Assembly (NCBI GenBank): GCA_001822095.1
Contig: MHPP01000032.1
Location: forward strand, 1 to 45,032
Source: Candidatus Staskawiczbacteria bacterium RIFOXYC1_FULL_38_18
GTDB taxonomy: Bacteria > Patescibacteriota > Minisyncoccia > Minisyncoccales > Staskawiczbacteraceae
DNA length: 45,032 bases
Direction of reading: 5' to 3'
A model generated the notes under the pieces. It searched no databases, had not been told where the DNA came from, and saw only the letters and a list, made by a program, of their open reading frames with translations. Made by a program: the position numbers and the translations under genes. Shown piece after piece: positions 1,119 through 31,568 of the stretch (positions are counted from its first letter, which is position 1; every line of letters starts with the position of its first letter).

Positions 1119-3268
1119 AACTAAACATAAAATCAACAGAAGAAAAAATTGAAAAGAAAGCGGTTGTAAAACCCGTCCCTAAAAAAGCCGAGCCTGTTAA
1201 GGTTGCAAAAGAAAAACTGGTTGAAAAGAAGGTTGAGAAAGTTGTTGCAGATAAGGGAGCGGAGCGGACGCTTACCCCGAGCAAAGGCGAGGGGAAAAAG
1301 GAGGAAAGAAAGACAGAGGTTGTAAAATCCGAGCCGAAGATAGAAGCAAAAAAAACAAGAAAAGAGGGTGAATACACAGCCAAGGATATTTATGTTTTGA
1401 AGGGATTGGAACCTGTAAGGTTAAGGCCGGGAATGTATATTGGTTCAACCGGAATTGACGGCTTGCATCACTTAATTTGGGAAGTTGTGGACAATTGTTT
1501 GGACGAAGCAATGGCAGGATACGCCAAGGAAATTGAAGTTGTTTTGTTGCCGGAAAACCGTGTAAGGGTTTCCGACGACGGCAGGGGAATCCCTGTCGAA
1601 AAGCACCCCGACACAGGCAAATCTACTTTGGAAACGGTTTTGACAACCTTGCATGCGGGCGGAAAATTTGGGGGAGAGGCTTATAAGGTTTCCGGAGGTT
1701 TGCATGGAGTGGGTATTTCGGTTGTGTGTGCATTGTCCACCTATATGCTGGCTCATGTTGAAAGAGATGGCGGAATTTATGAGCAGGAATATATGAGAGG
1801 GGTTCCAAGAGGCTCTGTTAAAAAAGTCGGCGAGTCAAAAAAAACCGGGACAACACAAACTTTTGAATATGACGACACAATTTTTTCGGGCGAGCTAAAA
1901 TATGATCCCAAAAGAGTTCTAAGTCATTTACGTCAGCAGGCATATCTAACAAAAGGAGTTAAAATAATTTTTCGCGACGAAAGAAAAAAAGAAGAAGAGT
2001 CCTCGTATGTGTTTTATTTTGAAGGGGGGGTGGGCTCGTATGTAAAATATTTGGTTCAAGGAAACCATGCAAGGCATCCCAATATTTTTTCAATTTCTAT
2101 CGAAAAAGATAATATTGCAGTTGAAGCGGCTTTTCAGTACACACAAGAAATGGAATGTACGGAAGAATCTTTCGCAAATAATATTTACACTGTTGAGGGC
2201 GGAACGCACATTTCAGGATTTAGAACAGCTTTAACAAGATCCTTAAACGATTACGCCAGGCGCGAAGGGTTTTTAAAGGAAAAAGATGAAAATTTTTCAG
2301 GAGATGATGTAAGGGAGGGATTAACCGCGGTTGTTTCGGTAAAAATAAGAACTCCGCAATTTGAAGGCCAGACAAAAGCAAAATTGGGAAATCCGGAAGC
2401 AAAGCCCGCTGTTGAAGCAGCCACCGCCGAAGGATTGTCTGACTATTTAGAAAGAAATCCAAGCGATGCCAGGGCAATTGTTGAAAACTGTTTGCTGGCA
2501 ACAAAAGCAAGATTGGCCGCAAAAGCTGCGCGCCAGACGGTTTTAAGAAAGGGAGCTTTGGAGGGATTGGCCTTGCCCGGAAAGCTTGCAGATTGTTTGT
2601 CCAGAAACCCCGAAGATTCAGAAATTTATATTGTTGAGGGAGACTCCGCCGGAGGTTCGTCAAAACAGGCCAGAGACAGGAGATTTCAGGCAATTTTGCC
2701 GTTAAGGGGAAAGATTTTGAATGTTGAGAGAGCAAGGCTGGACAAAATGCTGGCCTCAAAAGAAATTAAAGCGCTTATTATTGCCATGGGAACCGGAATT
2801 GGCGAAGATTTTAATATTGAAAAATTAAGATATCACAGAATTGTAATTATGACCGACGCTGACGTTGACGGAGCGCACATTAGGACACTGCTTTTAACAT
2901 TTTTTTATAGGCACTTTAAGCCCGTTGTTGACGCGGGACACATTTATATCGCCCAACCCCCTTTGTATAAAATTTCTTTTGGCAAAACAGCCCAGTATGC
3001 GTATTCGGACGGCCAGCGAGATAAAATTATAAAAGATATGGGTAAAGCAACGGCTTCAATACAGAGATATAAAGGTTTGGGAGAAATGAATCCCGAACAG
3101 CTTTGGGAAACAACAATGAATCCGGAAAACAGGACATTGCTTCAGGTTGCAGTTGAGGAAGCTCACGAAGCAGATAAAACTTTAGATATATTAATGGGGG
3201 AGGAAGTTGAGCCCAGAAAGAAGTTTATCCAAACTCACGCTAAAGCCGCCAAAAATATTGACATATAG
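1115..3268 (+). CDS. gyrB: DNA gyrase subunit B, with Lys/Glu-rich N-terminal extension
   Basis: 'RPGMYIGST', 'GGLHGVG', 'VEGDSAGG', 'PLRGKILN', 'DADVDG' and 'RYKGLGEMN' motifs. Confidence 0.96.
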   Translation: MKLNIKSTEEKIEKKAVVKPVPKKAEPVKVAKEKLVEKKVEKVVADKGAERTLTPSKGEGKKEERKTEVVKSEPKIEAKKTRKEGEYTAKDIYVLKGLEPVRLRPGMYIGSTGIDGLHHLIWEVVDNCLDEAMAGYAKEIEVVLLPENRVRVSDDGRGIPVEKHPDTGKSTLETVLTTLHAGGKFGGEAYKVSGGLHGVGISVVCALSTYMLAHVERDGGIYEQEYMRGVPRGSVKKVGESKKTGTTQTFEYDDTIFSGELKYDPKRVLSHLRQQAYLTKGVKIIFRDERKKEEESSYVFYFEGGVGSYVKYLVQGNHARHPNIFSISIEKDNIAVEAAFQYTQEMECTEESFANNIYTVEGGTHISGFRTALTRSLNDYARREGFLKEKDENFSGDDVREGLTAVVSVKIRTPQFEGQTKAKLGNPEAKPAVEAATAEGLSDYLERNPSDARAIVENCLLATKARLAAKAARQTVLRKGALEGLALPGKLADCLSRNPEDSEIYIVEGDSAGGSSKQARDRRFQAILPLRGKILNVERARLDKMLASKEIKALIIAMGTGIGEDFNIEKLRYHRIVIMTDADVDGAHIRTLLLTFFYRHFKPVVDAGHIYIAQPPLYKISFGKTAQYAYSDGQRDKIIKDMGKATASIQRYKGLGEMNPEQLWETTMNPENRTLLQVAVEEAHEADKTLDILMGEEVEPRKKFIQTHAKAAKNIDI
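1275..1294. repeat. REP-like palindrome in the gyrB N-terminal extension
   Basis: CCCCGAGCAAAGGCGAGGGG resembles the CCCTGAGCGTAGCCGAAGGG element at 20332; it encodes TPSKGEG. Confidence 0.45.
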
Positions 3269-3286
3269 TTTTAAAGGTGCTATACT
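3258..3286 (+). promoter_or_regulatory. Sigma70 promoter overlapping the gyrB 3' end
   Basis: TTGACA-N17-TATACT with TG extended -10. Confidence 0.8.
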
Positions 3287-3344
3287 AAATATAGCCCCTT
3301 TTCGGCAGTTTCTTTCACCATTTTTTTAACGCGGAGGATTTTGT

Positions 3345-3488
3345 ATGTGCCAGCCCGATCAAGACACCGTCCTGGAGCCATTCGCCAATGCCTATGACGA
3401 GGAGGACCGGCACGGGCAAATGGGCGAAGAGCCGGAGGATATGGCTCCGTCAGAACGCAACCCCCATCGGGATTTTTTGGACAGCTAA
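3345..3488 (+). CDS. 47-aa acidic orphan peptide (not in the ORF track)
   Basis: GGAGG SD 7 nt upstream. Translates to MCQPDQDTVLEPFANAYDEEDRHGQMGEEPEDMAPSERNPHRDFLDS*, bracketed by a promoter and a terminator. Confidence 0.6.
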   Translation: MCQPDQDTVLEPFANAYDEEDRHGQMGEEPEDMAPSERNPHRDFLDS

Positions 3489-3510
3489 AGTCCCACTGGG
3501 CCGGGACTAT

Positions 3511-3570
3511 GCCCTGTGCGCACACGAGTTAACTCTCGTCTTGTGTGTCACAGGGCTCTTTTTTTTATTT
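3511..3570 (+). terminator. Long-stem intrinsic terminator
   Basis: GCCCTGTG...CACAGGGC closing an inner ACGAG/CTCGT stem, followed by a T tract. Preceded by an AGTCCC/GGGACT hairpin. Confidence 0.75.
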
Positions 3571-3594
3571 TCAAAAAATGCTTAAATAAAATAT

Positions 3595-4344
3595 ATGTCG
3601 CGCTGGTACACTCCTAAAAAAACAACCGGTTTATATGATGGCTCGAAATCCGAGCCGTTTAAATTATCTCGTTCAAAAATAGAATATTTTTTGGAATGTC
3701 CTAAATGTTTTTACGTTGACAGAAAATTGGGAATAAGCAGGCCAAATGGATTTCCGTTTAATTTGAATATGGCGGTTGATATCCTTTTAAAACAGGAATT
3801 TGATATTTATCGCGAAAAGGCTCTGGCGCACCCGTTGATAAAAAACTACAAAGTTGACGCAATTCCCGCAAAGCACGAAAAAATTGATGAATGGAGAAAC
3901 ACCTTAAGGGGCATCCAATTTTTGCACCAGCCCACAAATTTTTTAATAACCGGAGCAATTGACGACCTCTGGCAAAACTCAAAAGGGGAGTATATTGTGG
4001 TGGATTACAAGGCAACCGCAAAATTTGGAGACATAAAGGAGTTGGATAAGTCTTGGCATGAATGCTATAAGCGCCAGATGGAAATTTACCAGTGGCTTTT
4101 TCGTCAAAACGGATTTAATGTTTCAGACACGGGATATTTTGTTTACTGCAACGGAAAAACCTACAACAGAATTTTTAACGCAAAACTGGAATTTGACGTA
4201 ACTTTAATTCCATACACCGGAAATGGGGACTGGATAGAGAAAACTGTTTTGGATATTCACAAATGCCTTAATTCCGACCAAATTCCGGAATCAAATTCAG
4301 AATGCGACTACTGCAATTATGTTAAAACAGTTAACGAAGGCTAA
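3595..4344 (+). CDS. PD-(D/E)XK nuclease superfamily protein (RecB/AddB/Cas4-like)
   Basis: 'LSRSKI..F.ECPKCF', 'GAIDDL', 'VVDYKAT', 'QMEIY' and C-terminal CDYC. Confidence 0.85.
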   Translation: MSRWYTPKKTTGLYDGSKSEPFKLSRSKIEYFLECPKCFYVDRKLGISRPNGFPFNLNMAVDILLKQEFDIYREKALAHPLIKNYKVDAIPAKHEKIDEWRNTLRGIQFLHQPTNFLITGAIDDLWQNSKGEYIVVDYKATAKFGDIKELDKSWHECYKRQMEIYQWLFRQNGFNVSDTGYFVYCNGKTYNRIFNAKLEFDVTLIPYTGNGDWIEKTVLDIHKCLNSDQIPESNSECDYCNYVKTVNEG

Positions 4345-5368: not shown

Positions 5369-5417
5369 CAGGGATGTTTTGCCTGATATAATGAACCTAT
5401 ACCATAGGTGCAGGTAT
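5365..5417 (+). promoter_or_regulatory. Copper operon promoter with CsoR-type operator
   Basis: TTGACA (5365)-N16-TATAAT (5387); inverted repeat ATACC-N9-GGTAT (5399-5417) of the TACC...GGTA CsoR type. Confidence 0.7.
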
Positions 5418-5485
5418 TTAATTAAAAATTAATAAAATTCTGGTATTTGTATAAATGAATAAATAAAAATTAATTAACAAAAATT

Positions 5486-5761
5486 ATGTCGGAAACCAAC
5501 AAAGAAAAAGCATTGATAAATTTTAAAAAGGCGCATTCTCTTTTGGCCAGAATTATTGGCATGACTGAAAAGGGCGAATACTGCGTTGATATTATGCAAC
5601 AGGATTTGGCTGCCATAGGGCTTTTAAGGTCAGCCCATGAACTATTAATGGAAAATCATTTAAATTCGTGTTTTAAAACCGCGATGGCTTCGCAAAATGA
5701 TAGGAAGAGAAAGGAGATGACCAATGAAATACTTAAGGTTACAAAGTTGTTTAACAAATAA
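5486..5761 (+). CDS. csoR: CsoR/RcnR-family metal-sensing repressor
   Basis: 'YCVDIMQQ' and 'ENHLNSC' Cys-His-Cys fingerprint; upstream of copA. Confidence 0.9.
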   Translation: MSETNKEKALINFKKAHSLLARIIGMTEKGEYCVDIMQQDLAAIGLLRSAHELLMENHLNSCFKTAMASQNDRKRKEMTNEILKVTKLFNK

Positions 5762-7456: not shown

Positions 7457-9677
7457 GAAAATAAAATTACAAATTGGCGGAATGACCTGCGCCTCTTGCG
7501 CGGCGGTGATAGAACACGATTTAAAGAAAACAAAAGGAGTTAATTCCGTTAATGTTAATTTTGCCACCGAAAAAGCTTATATAGATATTGATTCTACAAA
7601 AATAGATGTTGAAAAAATAAAAAAAGTTATTAACGACTCGGGCTATACGGCATTTGACGATATGCCCAAAATGAATGCGACAGCAGGAGAGCACGACCAC
7701 CATAAAATGCAAAAAGAGGCGGAAATCAAAGGATTAAAAAACCGCTTTTTGTTTTCGCTAATTTTGGGATTGCCGGTAATTTATATGATTATGGGTAAAA
7801 TGATAGGCCTCCCAATGCCTTCTTTTTTTGAGAAATACGGAATAGCAATTCAGGCGGTTTTGGCAACCGCTGTTATCGGGGTTTGTTTTAATATCTGGCA
7901 GTCGGGGGCAAAAAAAATTATAAAAATGGGTCCGAACATGGACACGTTAATTTTGATTGGAACAGCAACGGCTTATTTTTATAGCTTGGTAAACGCAGCA
8001 CTTTTATTTTTAGGCAAAGAGATATCAATGGAGTCGTTTTATTTTGAGGCGTCAATATTTATCCTTGTCTTTATATCTCTGGGAAAATATTTAGAAGCAA
8101 TCACCAAGGGTAAAACCTCAGAAGCAATAAAAAAGCTTATGGGGTTGCAGCCCAAAACAGCAATTGTTATAAGAGACGAAAAAGAATTGGTTGTTGCTAT
8201 TTCGGAGGTTGTTGAGGGAGACATTGTTTTGGTGAAGCCCGGAGAAAAAATTCCTGTTGATGGAATTGTTGTTGACGGATATTCGGGCGTGGACGAAAAA
8301 GCCATTACGGGGGAATCAATTCCCGTTGAAAAGAAAAAAGGAGACGAAGTGATTGGAGCCACAATAAATAAAACAAGTGTTTTAAAATTTAAGGCTACAA
8401 GGGTTGGAAAAAACACAATGCTTTCGCAAATTATTAAAATTGTCGAAGATGCAATGGGCTCGAAGGCGCCAATACAGCTTTTAGCAGACAAGGTTTCGTT
8501 TTATTTTGTGCCCGTTGTATTGGTTATAGCTTTGCTGTCTGCTGTGTTTTGGCTTTTGGCGGGATATTCCTTTGCGTTTGCTCTAACAATTTTTGTGGCA
8601 GTTTTGATTATTGCTTGCCCTTGCGCTCTTGGGTTAGCCACGCCCACGGCAGTTATGATGGGCACAGGATTGGCTGCGCAAAAAGGCATTTTGATAAAAT
8701 CCAGCAAGGCTTTAGAAACAGCAAAAAATATAAATATGGTTGTGTTTGATAAAACAGGGACGCTCACAAAAGGAGAACCCGTCGTAACCGACATTGCGCC
8801 AATTACGGACGAAAATATGATTTTACAAATTGCGGCTTCTGTTGAAAAAAATTCCGAGCACCCTTTGGCCGAAGCAATTGTTAAAAAGGCAAAAGAGGGA
8901 AATCTTGCTTTGAGCAAGGTCGAAGGATTTCTGGCAATTCCTGGCAAAGGGGTTGAGGCAAGTTTGGACCAAAAAAAAATTCTGTTGGGCACTAGGTCTT
9001 TGATGAAAGACAATAATATTTCTGTTGATTTGATTGAAGATAAGATGATAACCTTTGAGGACCAAGGAAAAACAGCAATGATTCTGGCCATTGATAAAAA
9101 AGTTATCGGAATTATTGTGGTTGCGGACGTTTTGAAAGAAAATTCAAAAGAAGCAGTTGATATACTCCACAAAATGGGAAAACAAGTTGCTATGATAACA
9201 GGAGACAATAGAAGGGTGGGGCTGGCAATTGCAAAACAAGTTGGAATTGACAGAGTTTTGGCAGAAGTTTTGCCCCAGGGAAAATCAGACGAAATCAAAA
9301 AATTGCAGTCAGAAGGCAAAGTTGTGGCAATGGTTGGTGACGGCATTAATGACGCCCCTGCGCTGGCCCAGGCAAACCTGGGGATTGCTTTGGGGTCAGG
9401 GACAGACGTTGCAATGGAAACAGGAGAAATTGTTTTGATAAAAGATGATTTAAGGGATGTTGTGAGTTCTATAGATTTAAGCAGATACACATTGAAAAAA
9501 ATAAAAATCGGGCTTTTTTGGGCGTTTTTTTATAATATAGTTGGAATTCCTGTGGCTGCCGGAGTTTTATTCCCCTCGACAGGCTGGCTTTTAAACCCTT
9601 CAATTGCTGCAGCGGCAATGGCGTTTTCATCTGTAAGCGTTGTTTTAAATGCTCTTTCGATGAAGTTTTACAAATAA
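7449..9677 (+). CDS. copA: Cu(I)-translocating P1B-type ATPase
   Basis: GMTCASC HMA domain, [27 protein letters not shown] and MAFSS motifs. Confidence 0.95.
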
Positions 9678-9701
9678 AAAAGCCGCAACTTGTGTTGCGG
9701 T
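9676..9701. terminator. Terminator between convergent copA and rimI-like genes
   Basis: A6 followed by GCCGCAAC-ttgt-GTTGCGGT (T tract on the minus strand). Confidence 0.65.
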
Positions 9702-9736
9702 AAAATAATTCATCGTCGACAAACTGCGGGTTGTAT

Positions 9737-10225
9737 TCATGCTTCCACTACTTCTTTGTAGTATCTGCGCACCATGCGGTATGCGTCTTCGGGCGAATCA
9801 TCGTAATAATTATGCAATACGTCTTGAGCGACAAAACCATTGGTGCGAAAGAATAGCTGAGCCGCCAGATTTCTTTCTCTGACCTCGGTCACTATCCGAT
9901 TTCGCTTTCGCCATGGAAGACTGGCATATAGCTCAGTAATTATTTGACTGCCCACGCCCTTGCGTCGGAAATTAGGGGCCACGGCAAGGTTTATTACGTG
10001 AGAAAAATCGCTATACAGCCCATAAATAACAAAACCCACAACCCGATCCTCGCTGAGAACAACCCGGCCGACATCCCTGCGCGTGCGAAGACAGCAGAGA
10101 AAGTCATTTTCTGGCCAAGAGAATTCAAAGCTTTCATTTTCTATTGCGATAACCTCGGGCAAGTGTTTTCGAACCAACCAGGTCGTCGCAATGCGAAGCC
10201 CAGACCTTAAGGTAGCTGATGCCAT
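9737..10225 (-). CDS. rimI: RimI-like GNAT N-acetyltransferase
   Basis: 'IENESFEFSW', 'NLAVAPNFRRKGVG', 'EVRERNLAAQLFF' and 'NYYDDSPEDAYRM'; SD AAGGAGG. Confidence 0.85.
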   Translation of the reverse strand: MASATLRSGLRIATTWLVRKHLPEVIAIENESFEFSWPENDFLCCLRTRRDVGRVVLSEDRVVGFVIYGLYSDFSHVINLAVAPNFRRKGVGSQIITELYASLPWRKRNRIVTEVRERNLAAQLFFRTNGFVAQDVLHNYYDDSPEDAYRMVRRYYKEVVEA

Positions 10226-10259
10226 AAAACCCTCCTTGATTGGAAAAGACCCAATTTGT

Positions 10260-10287
10260 ATTTTAACCCCGTAATACCATTAGTCAA
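10260..10287 (-). promoter_or_regulatory. Promoter for the rimI-like gene
   Basis: Minus strand TTGACT-N16-TAAAAT. Confidence 0.55.
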
Positions 10288-19226: not shown

Positions 19227-19257
19227 AAAGAGCGCTTCGGCAACGCGGGCGCTTTTT
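19227..19257. terminator. Bidirectional terminator
   Basis: AAAGAGCGC...GCGCTTTTT stem between convergent genes. Confidence 0.6.
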
Positions 19258-19260
19258 GGT

Positions 19261-19446
19261 TCAGCGGAAAAAGTATTTTACGTAAAGGGATATTATCCCC
19301 GCTAGTACAGTTGAGACTATGGGGGTAAGTACACTCGCAACCAGCACTCGTCGTGATTTTGTTCTCGGAATATATAGGGCGGCAAGATAAATGCCCGCCA
19401 CCGAGAGCATGGCAATCACATCCAGCAGGGCATTGATCAAATCCAT
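19261..19446 (-). CDS. 61-aa two-TM orphan membrane protein
   Basis: SD GGAGG 7 nt upstream; two hydrophobic helices separated by RTKSRR; has its own promoter. Confidence 0.65.
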   Translation of the reverse strand: MDLINALLDVIAMLSVAGIYLAALYIPRTKSRRVLVASVLTPIVSTVLAGIISLYVKYFFR

Positions 19447-19494
19447 TTTACAGCCTCCCTTCCATGAGAACTGCGGGACGAAAGAGCTATAAAT

Positions 19495-19523
19495 ATATTA
19501 CTATTTATTTAAAAATATGTCAA
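19495..19523 (-). promoter_or_regulatory. Promoter embedded in the miaA 3' end
   Basis: Minus strand TTGACA-N17-TAATAT. Confidence 0.65.
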
Positions 19524-20436
19524 TACGCTGCTTTGCTTTATGGGAACCACTTATCCAGATAATCCTTTTATCCCTCTGAAACCACGTCATTTGCCGTTTT
19601 GCAAAATGCTCAGATTCCTTTTGTATTTTTTCAATCATTTGCTCTTTTGATATTTTGTTTTGTAAATATTGTGCGACAAACCTGTATTCTAAGCCAAATT
19701 CCTCCAGCCTTTTCCACGATAAAGCTCTATGAAGTTTTTTGACTTCATTTATCATTGCGTTTTTTTTCAGTCTTTTTGCCAGGCGTTTATGGATATTCTT
19801 TTTTAACTCGCCGGGCGATTTTTTAATGCCGATTTGCAGGATAGAAAATTGGGATGTCAGACGTCCCGATTTTTGAACGGGTTTACCAGTCTTTAAAACA
19901 ATTTCAAGCGCCCTGACTAATCTGCGCGGATTTTTAGCATCAATATTTTTTGCCCTCTTTGGGTCAAGTTTTTTTAATTTTTTAAACATTCCCCCAACGC
20001 CCAATTTTTCCAATTTTTTTCTCAATTTCCAGTCCGGCTTAACTTCCGGAATTACAATTCCATCAACAACAGACTGAATATAAAATCCGGTCCCGCCAAC
20101 TATAATTGGCAATTTCCCGCGCTTTTGGATATTTTTAATTGCTTTTAACGCCAATTTTTGATATTGGGCTAAGGTAAACCTTCTTTTTGGATTGGCAACA
20201 TCCAAAAGCCAGTGGGAGATGCCTTGCATTTCTTTTTTTGTTATTTTACCGGAGCCGATATCCAGCCCCTTGTAAACCTGCCTTGAATCAGCCGAAATAA
20301 TTTCCGCTCCTTCTATGCCGAACTTATTTCGCCCTGAGCGTAGCCGAAGGGCTAATTTCACGGCCAAGTCGCTTTTTCCTGAAGCCGTCGGCCCCAAAAT
20401 TACAACTAGTTTGTTTTTTGTGCTGGCTGTTGACAT
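19501..20436 (-). CDS. miaA: tRNA dimethylallyltransferase
   Basis: 'GPTASGKS', 'ISADSRQVY', 'VGGTGFY' and 'AKRQMTWF'. Confidence 0.96.
   Translation of the reverse strand: MSTASTKNKLVVILGPTASGKSDLAVKLALRLRSGRNKFGIEGAEIISADSRQVYKGLDIGSGKITKKEMQGISHWLLDVANPKRRFTLAQYQKLALKAIKNIQKRGKLPIIVGGTGFYIQSVVDGIVIPEVKPDWKLRKKLEKLGVGGMFKKLKKLDPKRAKNIDAKNPRRLVRALEIVLKTGKPVQKSGRLTSQFSILQIGIKKSPGELKKNIHKRLAKRLKKNAMINEVKKLHRALSWKRLEEFGLEYRFVAQYLQNKISKEQMIEKIQKESEHFAKRQMTWFQRDKRIIWISGSHKAKQRIDIFLNK
19845..19873. repeat. In-frame palindromic insert in miaA
   Basis: AAAATTGGGATGTCAGACGTCCCGATTTT, encoding KSGRLTSQF. Confidence 0.55.
20331..20352. repeat. In-frame REP-like insert in miaA
   Basis: GCCCTGAGCGTAGCCGAAGGGC, encoding ALRLRSG between the P-loop helix and EIISADS. 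Confidence 0.65.
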
Positions 20437-20458
20437 GGTTATTTTTATGTGATAAGAT
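20430..20458 (+). promoter_or_regulatory. Plus-strand promoter between miaA and miaB
   Basis: TTGACA-N17-TAAGAT with TG extension, overlapping the miaA start codon. Confidence 0.7.
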
Positions 20459-20464
20459 ATTTCT

Positions 20465-20673
20465 ATCGTGGACTTCGGTCCGTTTTACGTTCCTTTCACT
20501 CGGAGAGTCACATGACTCGCTTGACCCACTCCATTTCTTTCGTCTCGATCTCCTGACGCCGGGCACGGCCCACCACGATGAGCGACACTGGTCGCTCAAA
20601 ATGGTGATCGGTACCCCCAGGCCCCAACAACATTTTGCTAATACCAATAGCACCATGTCGCTGGGGCTCTTTT
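20465..20673 (+). ncRNA. Putative structured small RNA (may carry a 14-aa micro-ORF at 20512-20556)
   Basis: GGAC-TTCG-GTCC, GAGTC/GACTC, TGAGCGAC/GTCGCTCA within CACCA/TGGTG, and a terminal GCCCCA/TGGGGC stem plus T tract; has its own promoter. Confidence 0.55.
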
Positions 20674-25453: not shown

Positions 25454-25481
25454 TTGACAATTTATAAAAATTATGTAATAT
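25454..25481 (+). promoter_or_regulatory. Promoter for the 25554-26358 unit
   Basis: TTGACA-N16-TAATAT. Confidence 0.6.
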
Positions 25482-25553
25482 AAGTTTAGTACCTAAGACC
25501 AAATATGGCGTTGCCATACCGCGTCGGCGGATTCCGATACAGGAGTATTTTCG

Positions 25554-26063
25554 ATGAGAATTATTGTTGGAACAAAAAACTCGCACAAACTTGAGGCTGT
25601 TGAAAGTGCTTGCGGGAGGGTGGGTATAAAAGCTCCTAAGATTTTAGGACTCAAGATTCCGTCCGGGCAAAATGAACAACCGGTAGGCCTTGAGGAAACC
25701 TATGAGGGTGCCTTAGCCCGAGCGGTTGGTGCGCAGAAAGAGTTTATTGACCCATGGGGTATTTTTGTCGGCATTGAAAGCGGAATAGTCAGGATTCAGC
25801 CGACGGCTTATGTCGACTTGGCGGTAGTTGTGGTTATTACTTCGGAGCGCAGGATTGTCGCAACTTCCAGCGGGGTTGGATTTCCTTACGATTATGTTGC
25901 AACCGCCAGAATCCGGGGTTTTGAAACCACGACCGTCGGCTCTGTGATTGCCGAAAAAACGGGCTGCGACGGCACGGACCCGCATTCAACCCTGACGCAC
26001 GGGAAAGTTTCACGAAAAGACATTCTTGTGCAGGCTCTAACGATTGCCCTTTCACAGGTCTAG
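25554..26063 (+). CDS. YjjX/DUF84-family inosine/xanthosine triphosphatase
   Basis: 'VGTKN..KL.AV', 'SGQNEQP...EET..GA..RA', 'GIESG' and 'LT.G.VSR'; SD AGGAG. Confidence 0.8.
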   Translation: MRIIVGTKNSHKLEAVESACGRVGIKAPKILGLKIPSGQNEQPVGLEETYEGALARAVGAQKEFIDPWGIFVGIESGIVRIQPTAYVDLAVVVVITSERRIVATSSGVGFPYDYVATARIRGFETTTVGSVIAEKTGCDGTDPHSTLTHGKVSRKDILVQALTIALSQV

Positions 26064-26073
26064 GAGAGAAATC

Positions 26074-26358
26074 ATGGCTCTATGCGGGAAATTTGAGAAA
26101 GGCGGCCGGGTTCGCGTTATAAACGCCGGGCGAAACGCAGATATAACCGGGCTAGACCCAAAGAAAGTTTACACGGTTGGAGCAGTAGAGGATGTTCCAA
26201 AAGATTCTCAGCCAAGCATTGGCCATAGCCAGCTTGTTTTTCTGGATGGAGTGGTCTACCCTTCCAACGTAAGGAAGGGATTTACTGACCGCGATCCGGA
26301 GAAAAAAAGAAGGAAAATGTTTTCCGGCTTCTACTTTGAAAAGGTGTCGGAAAATTGA
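26074..26358 (+). CDS. Hypothetical small beta-rich protein
   Basis: SD AGGAG overlapping the upstream stop; 94-aa ORF from ATG 26074. Confidence 0.6.
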   Translation: MALCGKFEKGGRVRVINAGRNADITGLDPKKVYTVGAVEDVPKDSQPSIGHSQLVFLDGVVYPSNVRKGFTDRDPEKKRRKMFSGFYFEKVSEN

Positions 26359-26368
26359 GAGATTTTAG

Positions 26369-26396
26369 AGGCTTGCGCTTTGCCGCAGGCTTTTTG
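26369..26396 (+). terminator. Intrinsic terminator
   Basis: GGCTTGCG-ctttgc-CGCAGGCT plus T tract. Confidence 0.6.
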
Positions 26397-26404: not shown

Positions 26405-26464
26405 TTATGCCTCTTTTGGAACAAGGATTTTCTGCACGTCGTCGGCGACGATTTTAATTTCGCC
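26405..26464 (-). pseudogene. Stranded duplicate of the dnaE 3' end (19 codons plus stop)
   Basis: Encodes GEIKIVADDVQKILVPKEA* versus GEIKIVADDVQEILVPKEA* at 27791-27850; 51/60 nt identical by manual alignment. Confidence 0.9.
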
Positions 26465-26518
26465 GTTGAACGTGCTACGATTAAATAGCAACCAGACACC
26501 TATTTTGAGGAGGGCTAT

Positions 26519-26878
26519 ATGGCAAACGAGGAGCTCTTTGAAAAAGCAATCGCTTTGTTGCGGGAAGAACTTTCGTTGTGGGAGCATTATCCTGGCAGCG
26601 AAGGAAGAATCAGGCGAGAACGCACCTCAACTGCTATCGCCGATTTATCTGCTGGCAATATCTCAGAAAGCGTTTTAAGGGCGCTTAATGAGTCGGGCAG
26701 GTATTATCTCAACCTTTGCAACTTTGCAAGAAATCCCGAGCAACTGAAAAGCTGCGGCCTTCCGCAAGCGACTATTGATGATTGGGTCAAAAAACGGGAA
26801 ACAAATGGAACCAGGTCAACCGAGTTTTTTATACTCTATGAGAGCCTCCTTGATCTGGCAACCAGCGCTCCGCATTGA
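26519..26878 (+). CDS. Hypothetical helical orphan protein
   Basis: SD GAGGAGG; extended -10 TGcTACGAT at 26473-26481; terminator CCGCAT/ATGCGG plus T tract at 26870-26893. Confidence 0.65.
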   Translation: MANEELFEKAIALLREELSLWEHYPGSEGRIRRERTSTAIADLSAGNISESVLRALNESGRYYLNLCNFARNPEQLKSCGLPQATIDDWVKKRETNGTRSTEFFILYESLLDLATSAPH

Positions 26879-26907
26879 AAGATGCGGTTTTTGTTTGCCG
26901 TAAAATA

Positions 26908-27095
26908 TTGACATTTATATTTTTATATGCTATGATTAATAAGGAGCAGCTTGAAATGCCTTTTGGTCTGTTGGGAATCAGGACCATAAGGAAGTAGAGT
27001 TTTCAGCCCTTAACCCCTCCGAAAGGAGCAAGCCGGGCATATCTCCTAATATCGTCAGTTACGTTTCAACGCAACCCGATTGAAGGAGATTGAAG
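26908..27095 (+). promoter_or_regulatory. Promoter plus about 150-nt structured 5' leader that sequesters the SD
   Basis: TTGACA-N17-TATGAT with TG extension; CCTTtTGGTC/GACCAtAAGG, CTCC-GAAA-GGAG, and ATCTCCT (27041) pairing with AGGAGAT (27084). Confidence 0.6.
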
Positions 27096-27728
27096 ATGTC
27101 AGAGCAAAGATGTGGTGGATGTGGAAAAAAATTTCAACAGAACGATTCCGACCGAATCACGAGTAGCGGGAACGCTCTCGGCCGGGAGCCGGACAAGCAG
27201 TTGTGCTACAACTGCGCCTTGGAAAAGGTGACCGGCGGATCTTGCCCCGAAGAAGGCGACTTTAACACAGCGCGCCTGATTTCAGGAGAGATGACCGACC
27301 AGGAGTGGAGATGGTTGCAGGAAGACATGCGAGCTGTCGAAGAGAGTCGTTCCATCATCGAGCCTGACTCTGATGACGAGGACGATTACTACAACGACCC
27401 CGCGTGGTGCTATCGGTGCAACAGGGATACCGCTTTTTGCAAGTGCATTTGCTACGAGTGTGGCGAATTGCTTGAAGAATGCGAATGTCACTGCGCGCTC
27501 TGCGACACACCCAAGCCCGGCGGCGGACTTTGTGAAACCCATGCTCCAGGGTGGAACGAGTCTGTACAGGGTCCTGTCCCTTCAAACAGTGAGGAGGTCG
27601 GGCAATGTGAAGGCTGCGGCATCACTTTTAACATTGTGTTCGAGATTGAATCTGAGTTTCCGACTCCGTCGAAGACTATGAGATTCCTGTCTCGGCACAA
27701 CCGTAAAAAGTGCCTGAAATGCAGCTAA
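27096..27728 (+). CDS. Cys-rich (about 20 Cys) multi-CxxC orphan protein with acidic linker
   Basis: CGGC, CYNC, CYRC, CKCICYEC, CECHCALC, CEGC and CLKC; SD AAGGAG; no signal peptide. Confidence 0.7.
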   Translation: MSEQRCGGCGKKFQQNDSDRITSSGNALGREPDKQLCYNCALEKVTGGSCPEEGDFNTARLISGEMTDQEWRWLQEDMRAVEESRSIIEPDSDDEDDYYNDPAWCYRCNRDTAFCKCICYECGELLEECECHCALCDTPKPGGGLCETHAPGWNESVQGPVPSNSEEVGQCEGCGITFNIVFEIESEFPTPSKTMRFLSRHNRKKCLKCS

Positions 27729-27736
27729 CATCACAA

Positions 27737-27773
27737 GCCCCGCAACGAGCGATCGTTGCGGGGCGTTTTCTTT
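27737..27773 (+). terminator. Intrinsic terminator
   Basis: GCCCCGCAACGA-GCGA-TCGTTGCGGGGC followed by gttttcttt. Confidence 0.8.
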
Positions 27774-27790: not shown

Positions 27791-30700
27791 TTAGGCTTCT
27801 TTTGGCACAAGAATCTCCTGCACGTCGTCGGCAACAATTTTTATTTCGCCTCCGCGATCGTCAACGCGCCCGGCCACAAAGACTATTTTATTCTCTTGCA
27901 ACGCAGTCGGGTTGCGTTCTAATAAATTTGGGAAAATCACAACCTCGGCTCTGCCCGACAAGTCTTCAAGTTTTATAAACAGCATTGGTTTGCCGTTTTT
28001 TGTAATAATTTTTTTAACAGAAGAAATTAATCCGCCAAACACAAGTTTTTTATCAACCAAGGTGTGGTCTACGAGTTTTATAAGAGGTGTTGTCCGCTTT
28101 TCAAAAAGTTTTTTGAAGCTGTTTAACGGGTGCGAGCTTACATAAAGGCCAAGCAATTCTTTTTCCCAGCCAAGCCTTTCAAATTCTGACGCGGGAGGGG
28201 CCGGCTCCAATTTTATTTCTTTGCTGGTTATTTTTATGCCCGAGGAAGCAAAAAGCCCCATTTGGTTTGAGTTGGTATTTTTATTGTTTTCGCGGGCAAT
28301 TTCAAGCATTTTTTCAAGGTTTTGCAAAAGCTGGTTTCTTTCGGCAAATTCGTCAAATGCTCCCGCCTTAATTAACGCCTCCATTGATTTTTTATTCAAA
28401 TCTTTTGACTTTACGCGGTTAATAAAATCGCTGATGGTTGAAAACCTCCCGTTGTTTTTTCTTTCTTCAACAATTGCGTCAATAATATTTACACCAACAT
28501 TTTTAATTGCCAGAAGCCCAAACCTGATTTGATTTTTTTCTGGCACAACAGTAAAGTTTTTTAAAGATTCGTTTATGTTTGGAGCCAGCACTTCAACGTC
28601 CATTTTTTTGCATTCATCAATTAAAAAAGAAATTCTTTCCACGTCGGCTTTTTCCGAAGTCAAAACAGATGCCATAAACTCAACAGGGTAGTGGGCTTTT
28701 AAATAGGCTGTCTGGTAGGCTATTGTGGCGTAAGCTGCCGAGTGCGACTTGTTGAATCCATACGACGCAAAAGGCAAAATCCATGTCCATAATTCCTGGG
28801 CAACCTTTTTCGAGGCGCCGTTTTTTATTGCTCCGTTAACAAATTTTTGCTCTTGCGCGTCAAGCAGGTCTTTAATTTTTTTACCAATGGCCTTTCTTAA
28901 AACATCCGCCTCGCCCAGGGTGAATCCGCAAACTTCCTGCGCAATTTTCATAAGTTGCTCCTGATAAATGCAAATTCCATAAGTATCTTTTAAAATTGGC
29001 TCAAGCGCCGGATGCAAATATTCAATTTTTTCCTTTCCGTGTTTTCTGGCAATATAATCTGGGATAAATTGCATTGGGCCGGGGCGATAGAGGGCAACCA
29101 TGGCCGTGATGTCCTCAAAAGTTGTAGATTTTAATTCTTTTAAATACCTTTTCATGCCGTCACTTTCAAGCTGGAACACAGATGTGGTCAGGGCGTCCTG
29201 CAAAAGTTTGTAGGTTTTTTGGTCGTCATAGGGAATTTTGTCCAAATCAATTGATAATTTATTGTGTAAAACATAAATTCTTGCCAGCGTGTCTTCTATT
29301 ATTGTAAGGTTTTTTAATCCCAAAAAATCCATTTTCAAAAGCCCAAGGTCTTCAATTCCGTGCATTTCATATTGGGTGATAATACCTTCTTCGCCTTCTT
29401 TGGTTGACCTTTGCAATGGCACAGAATCAGTTAAAGGATTTGCTGAAATCACAACTCCGCAGGCATGAGTTGAAGCGTGCCTGGCGACTCCTTCAAGTTT
29501 TTTCCCAAGGTCTATTAATTTTGTTGCCATTGGGTCGGTTTCATATTTTTCTTTAAATTCGTCAACTTTTTCCAGGGCTTCCGCCAGATCCATTCCCATG
29601 GGAATCATTTTTGCCATCTGGTCGCAGTAAGAATATGTATATTGCAAGGCCCTGCCAACATCTCGGATAACAGCGCGGGCAGCCATTGTTCCAAAGGTAA
29701 TAATTTGGGCTACATGGTCACGGCCATATTTTTCTCCGACATATTTTATAACTTCATCTCTTCTCCTGTCAGCAAAATCCAAATCAATATCGGGCATGGA
29801 AATCCTTTCAGGATTTAAAAATCTTTCAAAAAGCAAATTGTGTTTTAACGGGTCAACGTTTGTAATTCCGGTTAAGTAAGCAACAATAGAACCGCCGGCA
29901 GACCCGCGGCCCGGCCCCACAACAATCCTGTTTTGCTTTGCCCAGTTTACAAAATCTTGCACAATCAAAAAGTATCCGGCGAACCCGGTTTTTTCTATAA
30001 CAGAAATTTCATATTTTAGCCTGCCAATTATTTTTTGGTCAGGGTTTTTGCCGTATCTTTTTTCCAATCCCTGATAGCACAACTCTTCCAAGAATTGCGT
30101 ATCGGTTTTGCCTTCTGGCAAGGGAAACACGGGTAACTTTATTTTTCCAAGCTCAATGGTTAAATTGCACATGTCTGAAACCCTTTGCGTGTTTGCGAGG
30201 GCTTCGGGATATTCTTTGAACTCCTCCTCCATTTGCGCCGGACTTTTCATTGAGAAGTCGTCTTGTTTCATAGACAATCTTTCTGCGTCATTAATGTCGG
30301 AACCTGTGTTTATTAGCATTAAAACATCCTGAGCCTCGGCGTCTTCCTTTTTTAAATAATGAATATCGTTTGTGCAAACTAAAGGTATGCCGGTTTTTTT
30401 TGAAAGTTCAACCATTTTTTTGTTTGCGGTTGCCTGCTCAGGAATATTTTGGTGGCGCTGAAGTTCTAAATAAAAATTTCCCTTTCCAAAAAACTTTTCA
30501 TATTTTAGGGCGGTTGCCTCGGCTTCCTCATCTTTGTTTGAAATTAAGAGGCGCGGGATCTTTCCTTGTATGCAGGCGCTCATGCCGATTAATCCCTCCG
30601 CGTATTTTTCCAAGAGCTCTTCGTCAATTCTTGGTTTATAATAAAATCCGTCAAGCTGAGCTATTGAAACAAGTTTTACCAAATTTTTATAACCCTGCTC

Positions 30701-30982
30701 GTTTTTGGCAAGCAAAATTAAGTGGTTTCTTTTCTGGTCAACATTGGGCCGTTTGTCTGTGTGTTTTTCAAAAGCAACATAAACCTCGCATCCTATAATG
30801 GGCTTTATTTTTTTTGCCAGAGATTTTTTGTAAAACTCAATTGCTCCGTACATTACACCATGGTCAGTCAAAGCAACAGAATCCATTCCTAATTCTTTTA
30901 CGTAATCCAAAAGCTCGTCTATTTTAGGCAGGCCATCTAAAAGGGAATAGTGCGAGTGAACGTGTAAATGCGTAAATTTCAT
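27791..30982 (-). CDS. dnaE: DNA polymerase III alpha subunit
   Basis: PHP 'HLHVHSHYSLLDG', 'GPGRGSAGGS', 'MPDIDLDF', 'KMDFLGL', 'YGFNKSH' and a C-terminal OB fold. Confidence 0.97.
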   Translation of the reverse strand: MKFTHLHVHSHYSLLDGLPKIDELLDYVKELGMDSVALTDHGVMYGAIEFYKKSLAKKIKPIIGCEVYVAFEKHTDKRPNVDQKRNHLILLAKNEQGYKNLVKLVSIAQLDGFYYKPRIDEELLEKYAEGLIGMSACIQGKIPRLLISNKDEEAEATALKYEKFFGKGNFYLELQRHQNIPEQATANKKMVELSKKTGIPLVCTNDIHYLKKEDAEAQDVLMLINTGSDINDAERLSMKQDDFSMKSPAQMEEEFKEYPEALANTQRVSDMCNLTIELGKIKLPVFPLPEGKTDTQFLEELCYQGLEKRYGKNPDQKIIGRLKYEISVIEKTGFAGYFLIVQDFVNWAKQNRIVVGPGRGSAGGSIVAYLTGITNVDPLKHNLLFERFLNPERISMPDIDLDFADRRRDEVIKYVGEKYGRDHVAQIITFGTMAARAVIRDVGRALQYTYSYCDQMAKMIPMGMDLAEALEKVDEFKEKYETDPMATKLIDLGKKLEGVARHASTHACGVVISANPLTDSVPLQRSTKEGEEGIITQYEMHGIEDLGLLKMDFLGLKNLTIIEDTLARIYVLHNKLSIDLDKIPYDDQKTYKLLQDALTTSVFQLESDGMKRYLKELKSTTFEDITAMVALYRPGPMQFIPDYIARKHGKEKIEYLHPALEPILKDTYGICIYQEQLMKIAQEVCGFTLGEADVLRKAIGKKIKDLLDAQEQKFVNGAIKNGASKKVAQELWTWILPFASYGFNKSHSAAYATIAYQTAYLKAHYPVEFMASVLTSEKADVERISFLIDECKKMDVEVLAPNINESLKNFTVVPEKNQIRFGLLAIKNVGVNIIDAIVEERKNNGRFSTISDFINRVKSKDLNKKSMEALIKAGAFDEFAERNQLLQNLEKMLEIARENNKNTNSNQMGLFASSGIKITSKEIKLEPAPPASEFERLGWEKELLGLYVSSHPLNSFKKLFEKRTTPLIKLVDHTLVDKKLVFGGLISSVKKIITKNGKPMLFIKLEDLSGRAEVVIFPNLLERNPTALQENKIVFVAGRVDDRGGEIKIVADDVQEILVPKEA

Positions 30983-31028
30983 AATTCGTATGCCTTATTT
31001 TACTTTTTATATTATATTTATTCAACTA

Positions 31029-31057
31029 TTGACTCAAGCTCTTATATATGCTATAAT
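31029..31057 (+). promoter_or_regulatory. Promoter divergent from dnaE
   Basis: TTGACT-N17-TATAAT with TG extension. Confidence 0.75.
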
Positions 31058-31063
31058 TAATAA

Positions 31064-31318
31064 TATATAGCACATTGTCGCATCCCCCTCGTCTAACGAA
31101 CGAGGAGAGTCACGGGATCGACCGTCAAGCCGGTGGAGCGTATGTAGCGCGTTGCTGCTACTCCGCAGGGGAAGTTCTGCGTGGCTTGTCCAGCCTTTCT
31201 AATAAAGAAGGGTGTTAAAAAGGACTGGACAACACGAAGTCGCTCCCGGCGCAAATATAGCCGCGTAGAGGTTGCAAACACTTCAAAGTGAAATGAGTTG
31301 CAATCTCCGCGGCTTTTT
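31064..31318 (+). ncRNA. Putative multibranch structured RNA of about 250 nt
   Basis: CCTCGT/ACGAGG hairpin; closing stem GCCGGtGGAGCG/CGCTCCCGGC enclosing three hairpins; long terminator AGCCGCG...CGCGGCT plus T tract; no credible ORF. Confidence 0.65.
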
Positions 31319-31416
31319 ATCTAGAAATTTTTCTTGTGCATGCGCTGGACAAATTGCGAAAACTTTGTAATATAAGAGCGTTGCCCCTTTCCATTCTGGC
31401 ACAAAGGATTATTGCG

Positions 31417-31521
31417 ATGAAAAGACGCAAGCGCAGGAAAATAGTTTATTCGCCATCTCTGTGGTTTTTTGTCATTGTTGCGTTTGCTCTCGCATATTGC
31501 GTTTCGTCCATTATTCCTTAG
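31417..31521 (+). CDS. 34-aa basic plus single-TM peptide
   Basis: MKRRKRRKIVYSPSLWFFVIVAFALAYCVSSIIP*; SD AAAGGA; promoter TGGACA-N16-TAATAT (31346-31373); terminator 31541-31568. Confidence 0.55.
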   Translation: MKRRKRRKIVYSPSLWFFVIVAFALAYCVSSIIP

Positions 31522-31540
31522 CGGGAAAAAATTGCCCTGT

Positions 31541-31568
31541 GCGGAGAACATTGTTTCTCCGTTTTTTT
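31541..31568 (+). terminator. Intrinsic terminator
   Basis: CGGAGAA-cattgt-TTCTCCG plus T7. Confidence 0.7.

What the first reader, a model, noticed from the sequence alone, without database searches (positions are those of the whole stretch)
3258..31568. A second class of genes: autonomous promoter-SD-ORF/RNA-terminator mini-cassettes scattered among SD-less core genes
Seen: about eight units share one design, at 3258-3570, 9676-10287 (minus), 19227-19523 (minus), 20430-20673, 25454-26396, 26473-26893, 26908-27773, 31029-31318 and 31346-31568. Each has a sigma70-like promoter (often TG-extended; 26473 has only the extended -10), visibly higher GC, usually a strong SD (GGAGG, AGGAG, GAGGAGG), a short orphan ORF or structured RNA, and its own terminator. 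Core genes such as gyrB, csoR, nusG, gatB and rpsP start after A-rich tracts with no SD (rplK is an exception). No integrase or att site is visible. Inference: this is a distinct gene class with different translation rules. It may be recently acquired DNA, or, more speculatively, transcripts or products tuned for an SD-dependent (host) ribosome in an epibiotic CPR lifestyle.
Basis: partly seen in the sequence, partly recalled or inferred. Interest (0 to 1): 0.82.

Follow-up and report, generated by a model that had tools for sequence, protein, structure and literature searches.

The report
GC-rich Shine-Dalgarno cassettes, reader-less ribosome
A tiny groundwater bacterium whose ribosome has lost the site that reads Shine-Dalgarno signals still carries scattered, GC-rich add-on genes with those signals; the add-ons are swappable accessory genes, and the signal seems to be kept on purpose.

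Summary
All nine units are at the stated coordinates, with predicted promoter and terminator. The seven longer ORFs have a strong Shine-Dalgarno (SD) site and the 34-aa one a weak site. Two units look like structured RNAs.

Genome-wide, GC3 is bimodal, with about 9% of genes GC-rich. 45 of those 67 genes are SD-led, against 11 expected. Core genes have A-rich leaders without SD.

The 16S rRNA lacks the CCUCC anti-SD here, in 15 of 15 congeners read, and in the same-order tails read. That loss is already published for a Parcubacteria subgroup.

The units are insertions at hot spots. Their sites are empty in 6 of 14 to 15 of 19 congeners, and none of 20 holds the same genes there. A 60-nt copy of the dnaE 3' end flanks two units, so an att-like repeat exists.

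The closest relatives of the cassette genes that carry names are CPR bacteria, not a GC-rich host. "Recent import" does not explain the signature. In the orf210 family, same-site GNAT homologues, purC xenologues and syntenic csrA orthologues, high GC3 and AGGAG persist in anti-SD-less genomes while neutral sites are scrambled. What reads the motif is unknown.

The host-ribosome idea has no support. This scan noted the same pattern before in at least eight other Parcubacteria genomes and elsewhere in this genome.

The parts
3258..3570 (+). Unit 1: promoter, SD, 47-aa acidic ORF (3345-3488), terminator
   Evidence: TTGACA-17-TATACT with TG. GGAGGA at 3333-3338, 6 nt before the ATG; dG -9.5; GC3 0.69. 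Hairpin at 3538-3556 followed by a T-run. No Pfam family. No match to 3268-3590 among the 150 listed rows (142 rows were not listed).
9676..10287 (-). Unit 2: promoter, SD, GNAT acetyltransferase (9737-10225), terminator shared with copA
   Evidence: PF00583, E 1.5e-12. AAGGAGGG 6 nt before the ATG; dG -11.9. TTGACT-16-TAAAAT. The site is shorter by 457-634 nt in 11 of 13 congeners for which both flanks were listed. Homologues 45-49% identical lie beside copA in G008, G001 and G009. The two readable ones are GC-rich and SD-led.
19227..19523 (-). Unit 3: promoter, SD, 61-aa two-helix membrane peptide (19261-19446), terminator
   Evidence: TTGACA-17-TAATAT. GGGAGG 7 nt before the ATG; dG -11.3. 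The gatB|miaA spacer is 120 nt or less in 11 of 18 congeners, and no homologue lies there in 20 of 20.
20430..20673 (+). Unit 4: promoter plus a GC-rich structured transcript of about 210 nt, antisense between miaB and miaA
   Evidence: TTGACA-17-TAAGAT with TG. Fold z-score -3.2. No Rfam match. No DNA match beyond short pieces of 25-37 nt in 24 congeners and 16 same-order genomes. miaA|miaB spacer 120 nt or less in 15 of 19 congeners.
25454..26396 (+). Unit 5: promoter, NTPase_I-T/DUF84 (25554-26063), 94-aa ORF (26074-26358), terminator
   Evidence: PF01931, E 9.5e-27. SD CAGGAG and TAGGAGAG. Hairpin at 26367-26394. The NTPase was found in 9 of 300 same-order genomes at 27-37% identity. Best hit anywhere is 59% identical, and the named hits are CPR. 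orf94 has one homologue, 81% identical.
26405..26464 (-). Pseudo-copy of the last 19 codons and stop of dnaE (left copy of the direct repeat)
   Evidence: 85% identical to 27791-27850. Seven of the eight changed codons are synonymous, so it diverged as a working dnaE end in another lineage.
26473..26893 (+). Unit 6: extended -10, SD, 119-aa near-orphan ORF (26519-26878), terminator
   Evidence: GAGGAGG; dG -12.7. Hairpin at 26870-26887. Three hits in 1.84 billion representatives: a 99%-identical fragment, one 56%-identical protein and one weak hit.
26908..27773 (+). Unit 7: promoter, 5' leader of about 150 nt, SD, 210-aa Cys-rich protein (27096-27728), terminator
   Evidence: TTGACA-17-TATGAT with TG; hairpin at 27737-27764. 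GAAGGAGA 7 nt before the ATG. Belongs to a small family (28 homologues). The 13 genome loci are labelled as CPR in 11 cases.
27791..27850 (-). Resident dnaE 3' end (right copy of the direct repeat)
   Evidence: dnaE identified by Pfam.
31029..31318 (+). Unit 8: promoter plus a GC-rich structured transcript of about 255 nt, with terminator
   Evidence: TTGACT-17-TATAAT with TG; hairpin at 31295-31315. MFE -98.5, z-score -4.2. No Rfam match. No match beyond two short pieces of 22 and 36 nt at the promoter end in 40 relatives.
31346..31568 (+). Unit 9: weak promoter, weak SD, 34-aa basic and hydrophobic peptide (31417-31521), terminator
   Evidence: TGGACA-16-TAATAT, 9 of 12; hairpin at 31541-31562. 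AAAGGA; dG -5.4. dnaE|rnhB spacer 120 nt or less in 6 of 14 congeners.

Best explanation
What the units are. The nine units are real, mutually unrelated, single-copy accessory transcription units. Seven are protein-coding (eight ORFs) and two are probably structured RNAs. They were inserted at intergenic hot spots between conserved core genes of a Parcubacterium that lacks both uL1 and the anti-SD.

The compartment they belong to. They are part of a genome-wide compartment, about 9% of genes, that is GC-rich and led by AGGAG-type SD sites. This compartment draws on an accessory gene pool shared among CPR bacteria. It turns over by recombination through the flanking core genes.

What the SD does. 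The host's 16S rRNA has no CCUCC, so these SDs cannot work by the classical SD:anti-SD pairing. The GC-rich, AGGAG signature is a stable, apparently selected property of the pool, not an unameliorated scar of recent import.

Shown and inferred.
- Shown: insertion, hot spots, CPR-internal homologues, absence of the anti-SD, and persistence of the SD and high GC3.
- Inferred: transcription, translation, the recombination route, and whatever reads the motif.
For: Dichotomy.

Anti-SD absent. The own 16S tail reads ...GUGGAACAUUUUUUU. It is also absent in 15 of 15 congeners read and in all same-order tails read. uL1 was not found, which fits the published subgroup (PMC9297842, passages read).

Insertions at hot spots. 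The order gatB, miaA, miaB, g21926, thrS, dnaE, rnhB is syntenic in 20 congeners. Spacers of 120 nt or less were seen in 11 of 18, 15 of 19, 9 of 20 and 6 of 14 genomes at the four occupied sites. None of the 20 holds a homologue of the six cassette ORFs there. Other genomes hold other inserts, some with GC 0.44-0.53.

Recombination trace. The 60-nt second copy of the dnaE end has 7 of 8 changed codons synonymous.

Accessory pool within CPR.
- 11 of 13 orf210 loci are labelled as CPR, and orf210 was found in only 1 of 400 same-order genomes.
- The NTPase was found in 9 of 300 same-order genomes, and its named best hits are CPR.

Stable signature.
- orf210 homologues (35-71% identical) are GC 0.48-0.60 against flanks of 0.33-0.52. 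At least 9 of 12 loci with readable upstream sequence have AAGGAG-type SDs. Five of six of their other host genomes read lack CCUCC.
- Same-site GNAT homologues (48-49% identical) keep GC and SD.
- All 12 purC xenologues in the genus are GC-rich, and 9 of 12 are SD-led.
- csrA is syntenic in 13 of 26 congeners. All 14 copies have GC3 of 0.49-0.75, and 13 have GGAG at -13 to -10. The 14th has it at -17, before an upstream ATG. Third codon positions are 46% identical and the leader 27% identical. The adjacent core gene has GC3 of 0.26-0.39 and a similar synonymous divergence.

Genus-wide excess. AAGGAG-N5-8-ATG outnumbers its reversed control in 26 of 26 congeners, 1220 against 368 in total.

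Assembly. Contigs from other runs span the unit junctions.
Against: - There is no expression evidence of any kind. No RNA run holds this DNA.
- Promoters, terminators and small ORFs are predictions. The 47-, 61- and 34-aa ORFs have no known homologue and could be non-coding.
- Gene starts come from a home-made caller.
- The selection argument rests on four families. One of them, csrA, has a special reason to keep GGA motifs: CsrA binds them, which I state from recall.
- An unsampled SD-using reservoir with fast turnover could mimic conservation in the patchy families.
- Flanking repeats were found for only two of the nine units, so the insertion route of the others is unknown.
- Host anti-SD status was read for only 7 genomes carrying orf210, counting this one.
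Confidence: 0.72

Rival explanations
1. Recent imports. The units were acquired recently from SD-using, GC-richer donors. Their SD and GC are non-functional relics that have not yet ameliorated.
For: The units are absent from the syntenic sites of most congeners. Their codon usage is atypical, with low hexamer scores. The families are patchy. One orf210 host genome does have CCUCC (G051).
Against: The nearest homologues are only 59-81% identical in 5.8 billion proteins. The named relatives are CPR. Syntenic csrA orthologues and same-site GNAT homologues keep their SD and GC3 in an anti-SD-less genus even though their synonymous sites are scrambled.
Confidence: 0.2
2. CsrA regulon. The AGGAG motifs are binding sites for the RNA-binding regulator CsrA (A(N)GGA), which this genome encodes, and are not ribosome-binding sites.
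For: csrA is present at C23:7116-7385 and is itself a GC-rich, SD-led gene. Its leader holds several GGA motifs. That CsrA binds GGA at SD sites is recalled, not tested here.
Against: Only 13 of 26 congeners have csrA. The AAGGAG-N5-8-ATG excess is the same with csrA (mean 45.2) and without it (mean 48.6).
Confidence: 0.08
3. Host-directed expression. The cassettes are tuned for an SD-dependent ribosome of a host cell.
For: Only the mismatch between the SD sites and the organism's own 16S.
Against: The units are scattered between core genes and use the same promoter type as core operons. They include ordinary cytoplasmic enzymes and a regulator: NTPase, GNAT, purC and CsrA. Their homologues are almost all CPR-labelled. 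No transfer apparatus is linked to them in the window.
Confidence: 0.02
4. Assembly or binning artefact. GC-rich pieces of other organisms were stitched into the contig.
For: The genome is a metagenome-assembled genome in 32 contigs.
Against: Contigs with zero or one mismatch from other runs and studies span the junctions. X12 covers 30779-32287 and 18498-19531, X7 covers 25986-26701 and X8 covers 18599-19531. The same architecture recurs in 26 of 26 congeners.
Confidence: 0.01

Closest known systems
Anti-SD-lacking, uL1-lacking subgroup of Parcubacteria (Tsurumaki et al. 2022, RNA 28:1041, PMC9297842; passages read)
   Same: The 16S ends without CCUCC. uL1 and bS21 were not found. Core genes lack SD.
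   Different: In the passages I read, the paper reports the loss only. It does not mention a minority gene class that keeps SD sites.
Chromosomal hot spots or 'islets' of horizontally acquired genes between core genes (Oliveira, Touchon, Cury and Rocha 2017, recalled and not read), and HGT in Patescibacteria (PMC12455944; abstract and passages read)
   Same: Variable content between syntenic core genes. Exchange is mostly within Patescibacteria (83% of events in that paper). Composition is atypical. There is a trace of recombination through a flanking core gene.
   Different: The atypical composition and the SD are not transient. They persist in long-resident members such as csrA.
Phage 'morons' (autonomous promoter-gene-terminator units; Hendrix and Juhala concept, recalled and not read)
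   Same: Self-contained units with their own promoter and terminator, a different GC content, and insertion between unrelated genes.
   Different: They do not lie in a prophage. The flanks are gyrB, copA, gatB, miaA, miaB, thrS, dnaE and rnhB. There were no phage hits for orf210 or orf119.
SD-poor translation with A-rich leaders in Bacteroidia (recalled); organisms without an anti-SD generally lack SD (Amin et al. 2018, PMC6107228; abstract and passages read)
   Same: The core genes have A-rich leaders, with A-runs peaking at -6 to -2, and are depleted of GGAG.
   Different: Here a discrete 9% of genes keeps textbook SD sites although there is no anti-SD at all.

Membership tests
Classical SD-dependent initiation | Purine-rich GGAGG-type motif 5-10 nt upstream of the start codon | tested here: met
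   Seven window ORFs score dG -6.9 to -12.7 with 6-8 nt spacing. Genome-wide, 45 of 67 high-GC3 genes have it.
Classical SD-dependent initiation | Complementary CCUCC at the 3' end of the organism's own 16S rRNA | tested here: not met
   The tail reads GGAACAUUUUUUU, with no CCUCC in the roughly 400 nt after helix 45 apart from a tRNA-like stretch near the contig end. The same holds in 15 of 15 congeners read. Only one 16S gene was found.
Horizontally acquired islets at chromosomal hot spots | Flanked by syntenic core genes, with the site empty or differently filled in relatives | tested here: met
Horizontally acquired islets at chromosomal hot spots | Patchy distribution of the cargo that does not follow the species tree | tested here: met
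   NTPase in 9 of 300 and orf210 in 1 of 400 same-order genomes, yet both have relatives in other CPR lineages.
Phage morons | Own promoter and terminator around one gene | tested here: inconclusive
   There are consensus matches only and no transcript data.
Phage morons | Located inside a prophage or phage genome | tested here: not met
   The flanks are housekeeping genes. No phage hits. One partial IMG/VR hit.
Integron gene cassettes | Promoterless ORFs bounded by attC sites next to an IntI integrase | tested here: not met
   Each unit has its own promoter. No repeat family is shared between units. The only tyrosine recombinase is on another contig, at C14:57945-58490.
Site-specific integrative element | Direct repeat of the target gene's 3' end flanking the insert | tested here: met
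   Met for units 6 and 7 only, at 26405-26464 and 27791-27850, 85% identical.
Site-specific integrative element | Integrase encoded in or beside the insert | tested here: not met
   There is no integrase domain in the window's ORFs.
Known RNA families (for units 4 and 8) | Match to an Rfam covariance model | tested here: not met
   No match at the gathering threshold or at E up to 1. RNase P RNA and tmRNA lie elsewhere. No small SRP RNA was found anywhere in the genome.

The most novel reading that the evidence does not exclude
In Parcubacteria without an anti-SD, the AGGAG motif and the GC-rich coding of accessory genes are both kept by purifying selection. That would imply a reader of the SD-like motif other than the 16S 3' tail: a protein, another rRNA site or a small RNA. 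It would give the flexible genome a second, separately controlled mode of initiation or regulation beside the A-rich-leader mode of the core genes.
Probability: 0.35. Interest if true: 0.8.

Novelty: new variant of a known kind. Interest (0 to 1): 0.55.

Why it matters
It is textbook that SD sites work by pairing with the 16S tail. Surveys find that organisms without the anti-SD also lack SD sites (PMC6107228). Here a whole genus lacks the anti-SD, yet a discrete accessory gene compartment keeps textbook SD sites and high GC3. It does so even in genes that have sat at one site long enough to scramble their synonymous positions.

Two readings remain. Either an unseen SD-using reservoir feeds these genomes very fast, or the motif has a reader other than the 16S tail. 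Either would tell us how ultra-small symbiotic bacteria handle foreign and accessory genes. The question can be tested with metatranscriptomes, metaproteomes or engineered ribosomes.

As a plain finding, the window is a clean example of insertion hot spots in a CPR genome.

Tried and rejected
- Rfam found nothing in the window at either threshold, and there are no tRNAs. I considered SRP, 6S and RNase P RNA. RNase P RNA and tmRNA lie elsewhere. A conserved RNA such as SRP would not be missing from 24 congeners.
- Units 4 and 8 share a 10-mer but nothing else. The 44 GC-rich non-coding islands of the genome show no family, and no cassette protein or RNA has a paralogue.
- Flanking direct repeats were sought around units 1-4, 8 and 9. 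None was found.
- No RNA holder was listed for this DNA.
- Contigs of four DNA runs showed no clean joint that skips a cassette. The one recurrent joint (25344 to 25431, 86 nt) has only 20 letters on its shorter side and lies in a palindrome.
- CsrA as a general reader was rejected, because the motif excess is the same with and without csrA.
- A cis anti-SD (CUCC) upstream of the SD is not enriched: 4 of 45 against 6.9 expected.
- Pairing of A-rich core leaders with the U-rich 16S tail is not supported by spacing. The A-run peak lies at -6 to -2.
- A k-mer search upstream of the SDs returned only promoter-like boxes.
- Phage origin: orf210 and orf119 have no hit in 50,697 phage records. There is one partial hit at the end of an IMG/VR contig.
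- rplK as a core gene with an SD is not conserved.
- Supplements of the papers could not be seen. Their tables may list which Parcubacteria lack the anti-SD.

Full report
**Setting.** The window is a whole 45-kb contig (C32) of a 687-kb, 32-contig genome that is 95% complete, with about 39% GC. I did not verify the name, but every close relative found is a CPR/Parcubacteria genome.

Pfam gives the core genes:
- gyrB, a PD-(D/E)XK nuclease, mnmA, and csoR with an HMA/DsbD protein and copA;
- secE, nusG, rplK, a dcd-thyA fusion, a second dcd-like gene, folA and gatB;
- miaA, miaB, thrS, dnaE, rnhB, two large surface-type proteins, rpmF, nusB, rnc, rpsP, a response regulator and spoVG.

- The seven cassette ORFs of 47-210 aa have SD duplex energies of -6.9 to -12.7 kcal/mol and GC3 of 0.47-0.69. 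The 34-aa ORF of unit 9 has a weak AAAGGA.
- Of 39 other genes, only rplK and miaB reach -5 kcal/mol, and GC3 of the 39 is 0.28-0.42.
- Promoters and terminators are not what sets the units apart. The best promoter of the window precedes the SD-less csoR operon.
- The rplK 'exception' is chance: none of 16 congeners has GGAG there.

**Genome-wide test.** I called 755 ORFs with a hexamer model.
- Upstream regions are depleted of SD-like pairing compared with internal coding controls (80 of 730 against 190 of 729 at -4.5 kcal/mol). They are A-rich, with G at only 7-18%.
- After removing ORFs that overlap RNA genes, GC3 fits two components: 89% of genes at 0.355 and 11% at 0.47 (BIC -1806 against -1607).
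- The share of SD-led genes steps from 1-5% below GC3 0.45 to 33-44% above it.
- With SD-aware starts, 45 of 67 high-GC3 genes have an in-frame SD plus start, against 11.3 expected from reversed sequence. For the rest the figures are 74 of 655 against 47.

**The ribosome cannot read these sites.**
- The single 16S gene ends ...GUCGUAACAAGGCACGGGUAGCGGAAGCUGCUCGUGGAACAUUUUUUU. No CCUCC follows in the roughly 400 nt after helix 45, apart from a tRNA-like stretch near the contig end.
- The same holds in 15 of 15 congeners whose tails could be read, and in all the same-order tails read.
- uL1 and bS21 were not found, and rplK is not followed by rplA.
- This matches the published anti-SD-less, uL1-less subgroup of Parcubacteria (PMC9297842, passages read), so that part is known.
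- Surveys report that organisms without an anti-SD also lack SD sites (PMC6107228, abstract and passages read).
- My searches for Shine-Dalgarno or anti-Shine-Dalgarno together with candidate phyla radiation, Patescibacteria or Parcubacteria listed 10 papers. I read passages of two, and neither describes an SD-keeping minority class. The titles and abstract starts of the others do not point to one.

**The units are insertions at hot spots.**
- In 20 congeners the order gatB, miaA, miaB, g21926, thrS, dnaE, rnhB is conserved.
- The four sites occupied in this genome have spacers of 120 nt or less in 11 of 18, 15 of 19, 9 of 20 and 6 of 14 genomes.
- None of the 20 has a homologue of the six cassette ORFs there.
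- Several genomes hold other inserts, some GC-rich with SD-led ORFs.
- Units 4 and 8 have no DNA match beyond short pieces of 22-37 nt in 24 congeners and 16 same-order genomes.
- At the copA site the spacer is 457-634 nt shorter in 11 of 13 congeners with both flanks listed.
- Three congeners carry a 45-49% identical GNAT beside copA.
- For unit 1, I saw no match among the 150 listed rows. Another 142 rows were not listed.

**An att-like repeat.** Positions 26405-26464 copy the last 19 codons and the stop of dnaE (27791-27850) at 85% identity.
- Seven of the eight changed codons are synonymous. The copy therefore diverged while it served as a dnaE end in another lineage.
- Units 6 and 7 lie between the two copies.
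- I infer that the cassettes arrived on DNA from a related genome, through recombination anchored in dnaE.
- No integrase lies in the window. The only tyrosine recombinase is on C14.

**Where the genes come from.**
- orf210 is a real Cys-rich protein family of about 28 members in 5.8 billion proteins.
- Its 13 genome loci are labelled Paceibacterota or Paceibacteria, Zambryskibacteria, Vogelbacteria, 'Saccharibacteria' and Patescibacteria, plus one Nanoarchaeia and one 'Gammaproteobacteria' of 915 kb.
- It occurs in only 1 of 400 same-order genomes.
- The NTPase was found in 9 of 300 same-order genomes at 27-37% identity. Its best hits anywhere are 59% identical or less, and the named ones are CPR.
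- orf94 and orf119 are near-orphans.
- There are no phage hits.

Nothing points to a GC-rich non-CPR donor.

**The signature is stable, not fresh.**
- orf210 family. In the 13 orf210 loci (35-71% identical) the gene has GC of 0.48-0.60 against flanks of 0.33-0.52. At least 9 of the 12 loci with readable upstream sequence have an AAGGAG-type SD. Five of the six other host genomes whose 16S tail I could read lack CCUCC.
- GNAT. The two readable same-site homologues keep high GC and the SD.
- purC. All 12 xenologues in the genus are GC-rich, and 9 of 12 are SD-led.
- csrA, the clearest case (C23:7116-7385). It is present in 13 of 26 congeners (14 copies), and flanks match between nearly all pairs compared. 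All 14 copies have GC3 of 0.49-0.75 against flanks of 0.32-0.41, with one flank at 0.53. Thirteen have GGAG at -13 to -10, and the 14th has it before an upstream ATG.
- csrA divergence. Third positions at conserved residues are only 46% identical, and the rest of the leader 27%. The adjacent core gene shows a similar synonymous divergence (0.42-0.60) with GC3 of 0.26-0.39. Two neighbours with the same history thus keep opposite compositions.
- Genus-wide. AAGGAG-N5-8-ATG exceeds its reversed control in all 26 congeners, 1220 against 368 in total.

**What reads the motif?** This is not solved.
- CsrA is a natural candidate, but the excess is the same in genomes with and without csrA.
- A cis anti-SD is not enriched.
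- The A-runs of core leaders sit too close to the start to pair with the U-rich tail.
- No RNA data exist.
- Contigs of other runs confirm the junctions but show no presence or absence alleles.

**Verdict.** 'Distinct class' is supported. 'Recently acquired' is only half right, because these are insertions but the signature is old. The host-ribosome idea has no support. This scan has already noted the same pattern in at least eight other Parcubacteria genomes and twice in this genome, so the case is a further, well-documented instance rather than a first.

Noticed in passing
window 26405-26464 and 27791-27850: A 60-nt direct repeat. A second copy of the dnaE 3' end, with almost only synonymous differences, marks the border of a two-cassette insert.
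   Followed up: yes
window 23533-25263 (thrS): ThrRS is 86-89% identical to that of one congener (G018) and 72-78% to that of another (G020). It is only 46-58% identical to the thrS matches of the other congeners with one. DnaE next door is 77-87% identical in all. This looks like a xenologous replacement of thrS.
   Followed up: partly
window 3268-13793: In at least 14 congeners gyrB is followed within 74-2091 nt by secE-nusG-rplK. Here about 10.5 kb lies between them, holding unit 1, a nuclease, mnmA, the copper operon, GNAT and five more genes. In relatives those genes sit on other contigs.
   Followed up: partly
window 15076-16674: One 532-aa ORF fuses a dCTP deaminase-like domain to thymidylate synthase. 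It is followed by a second dcd/dUTPase-like gene and folA.
   Followed up: no
window 25312-25447: A long imperfect palindrome, with 30-nt arms and a perfect GC-rich hairpin inside, lies just upstream of thrS. Contigs of three runs show a joint that skips 86 nt here, but with only 20 letters on the shorter side.
   Followed up: partly
G000 C1:600-5300: The 16S gene is interrupted by large insertions. One, near position 1400, carries an ORF. No 23S rRNA and no small SRP RNA were found in the assembly.
   Followed up: partly
G000 C23:7116-7385: csrA is itself a GC-rich, SD-led gene. It is syntenic in half of the genus, and its leader holds several GGA motifs and, in six of the 14 copies, a CCUCCC element.
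   Followed up: yes
window 20505-20514 and 31104-31113: Units 4 and 8 share the 10-mer GGAGAGTCAC near their 5' ends. About 0.1 such match would be expected by chance, and no further similarity was found.
   Followed up: partly
window 26943-27095: In the predicted fold of the long leader of unit 7, an upstream AUCUCCU pairs with the SD. The fold z-score is only -1.7.
   Followed up: partly
G000 C30:12030-12691: A paralogue of the window's PD-(D/E)XK nuclease gene, 71% identical at the nucleotide level.
   Followed up: no
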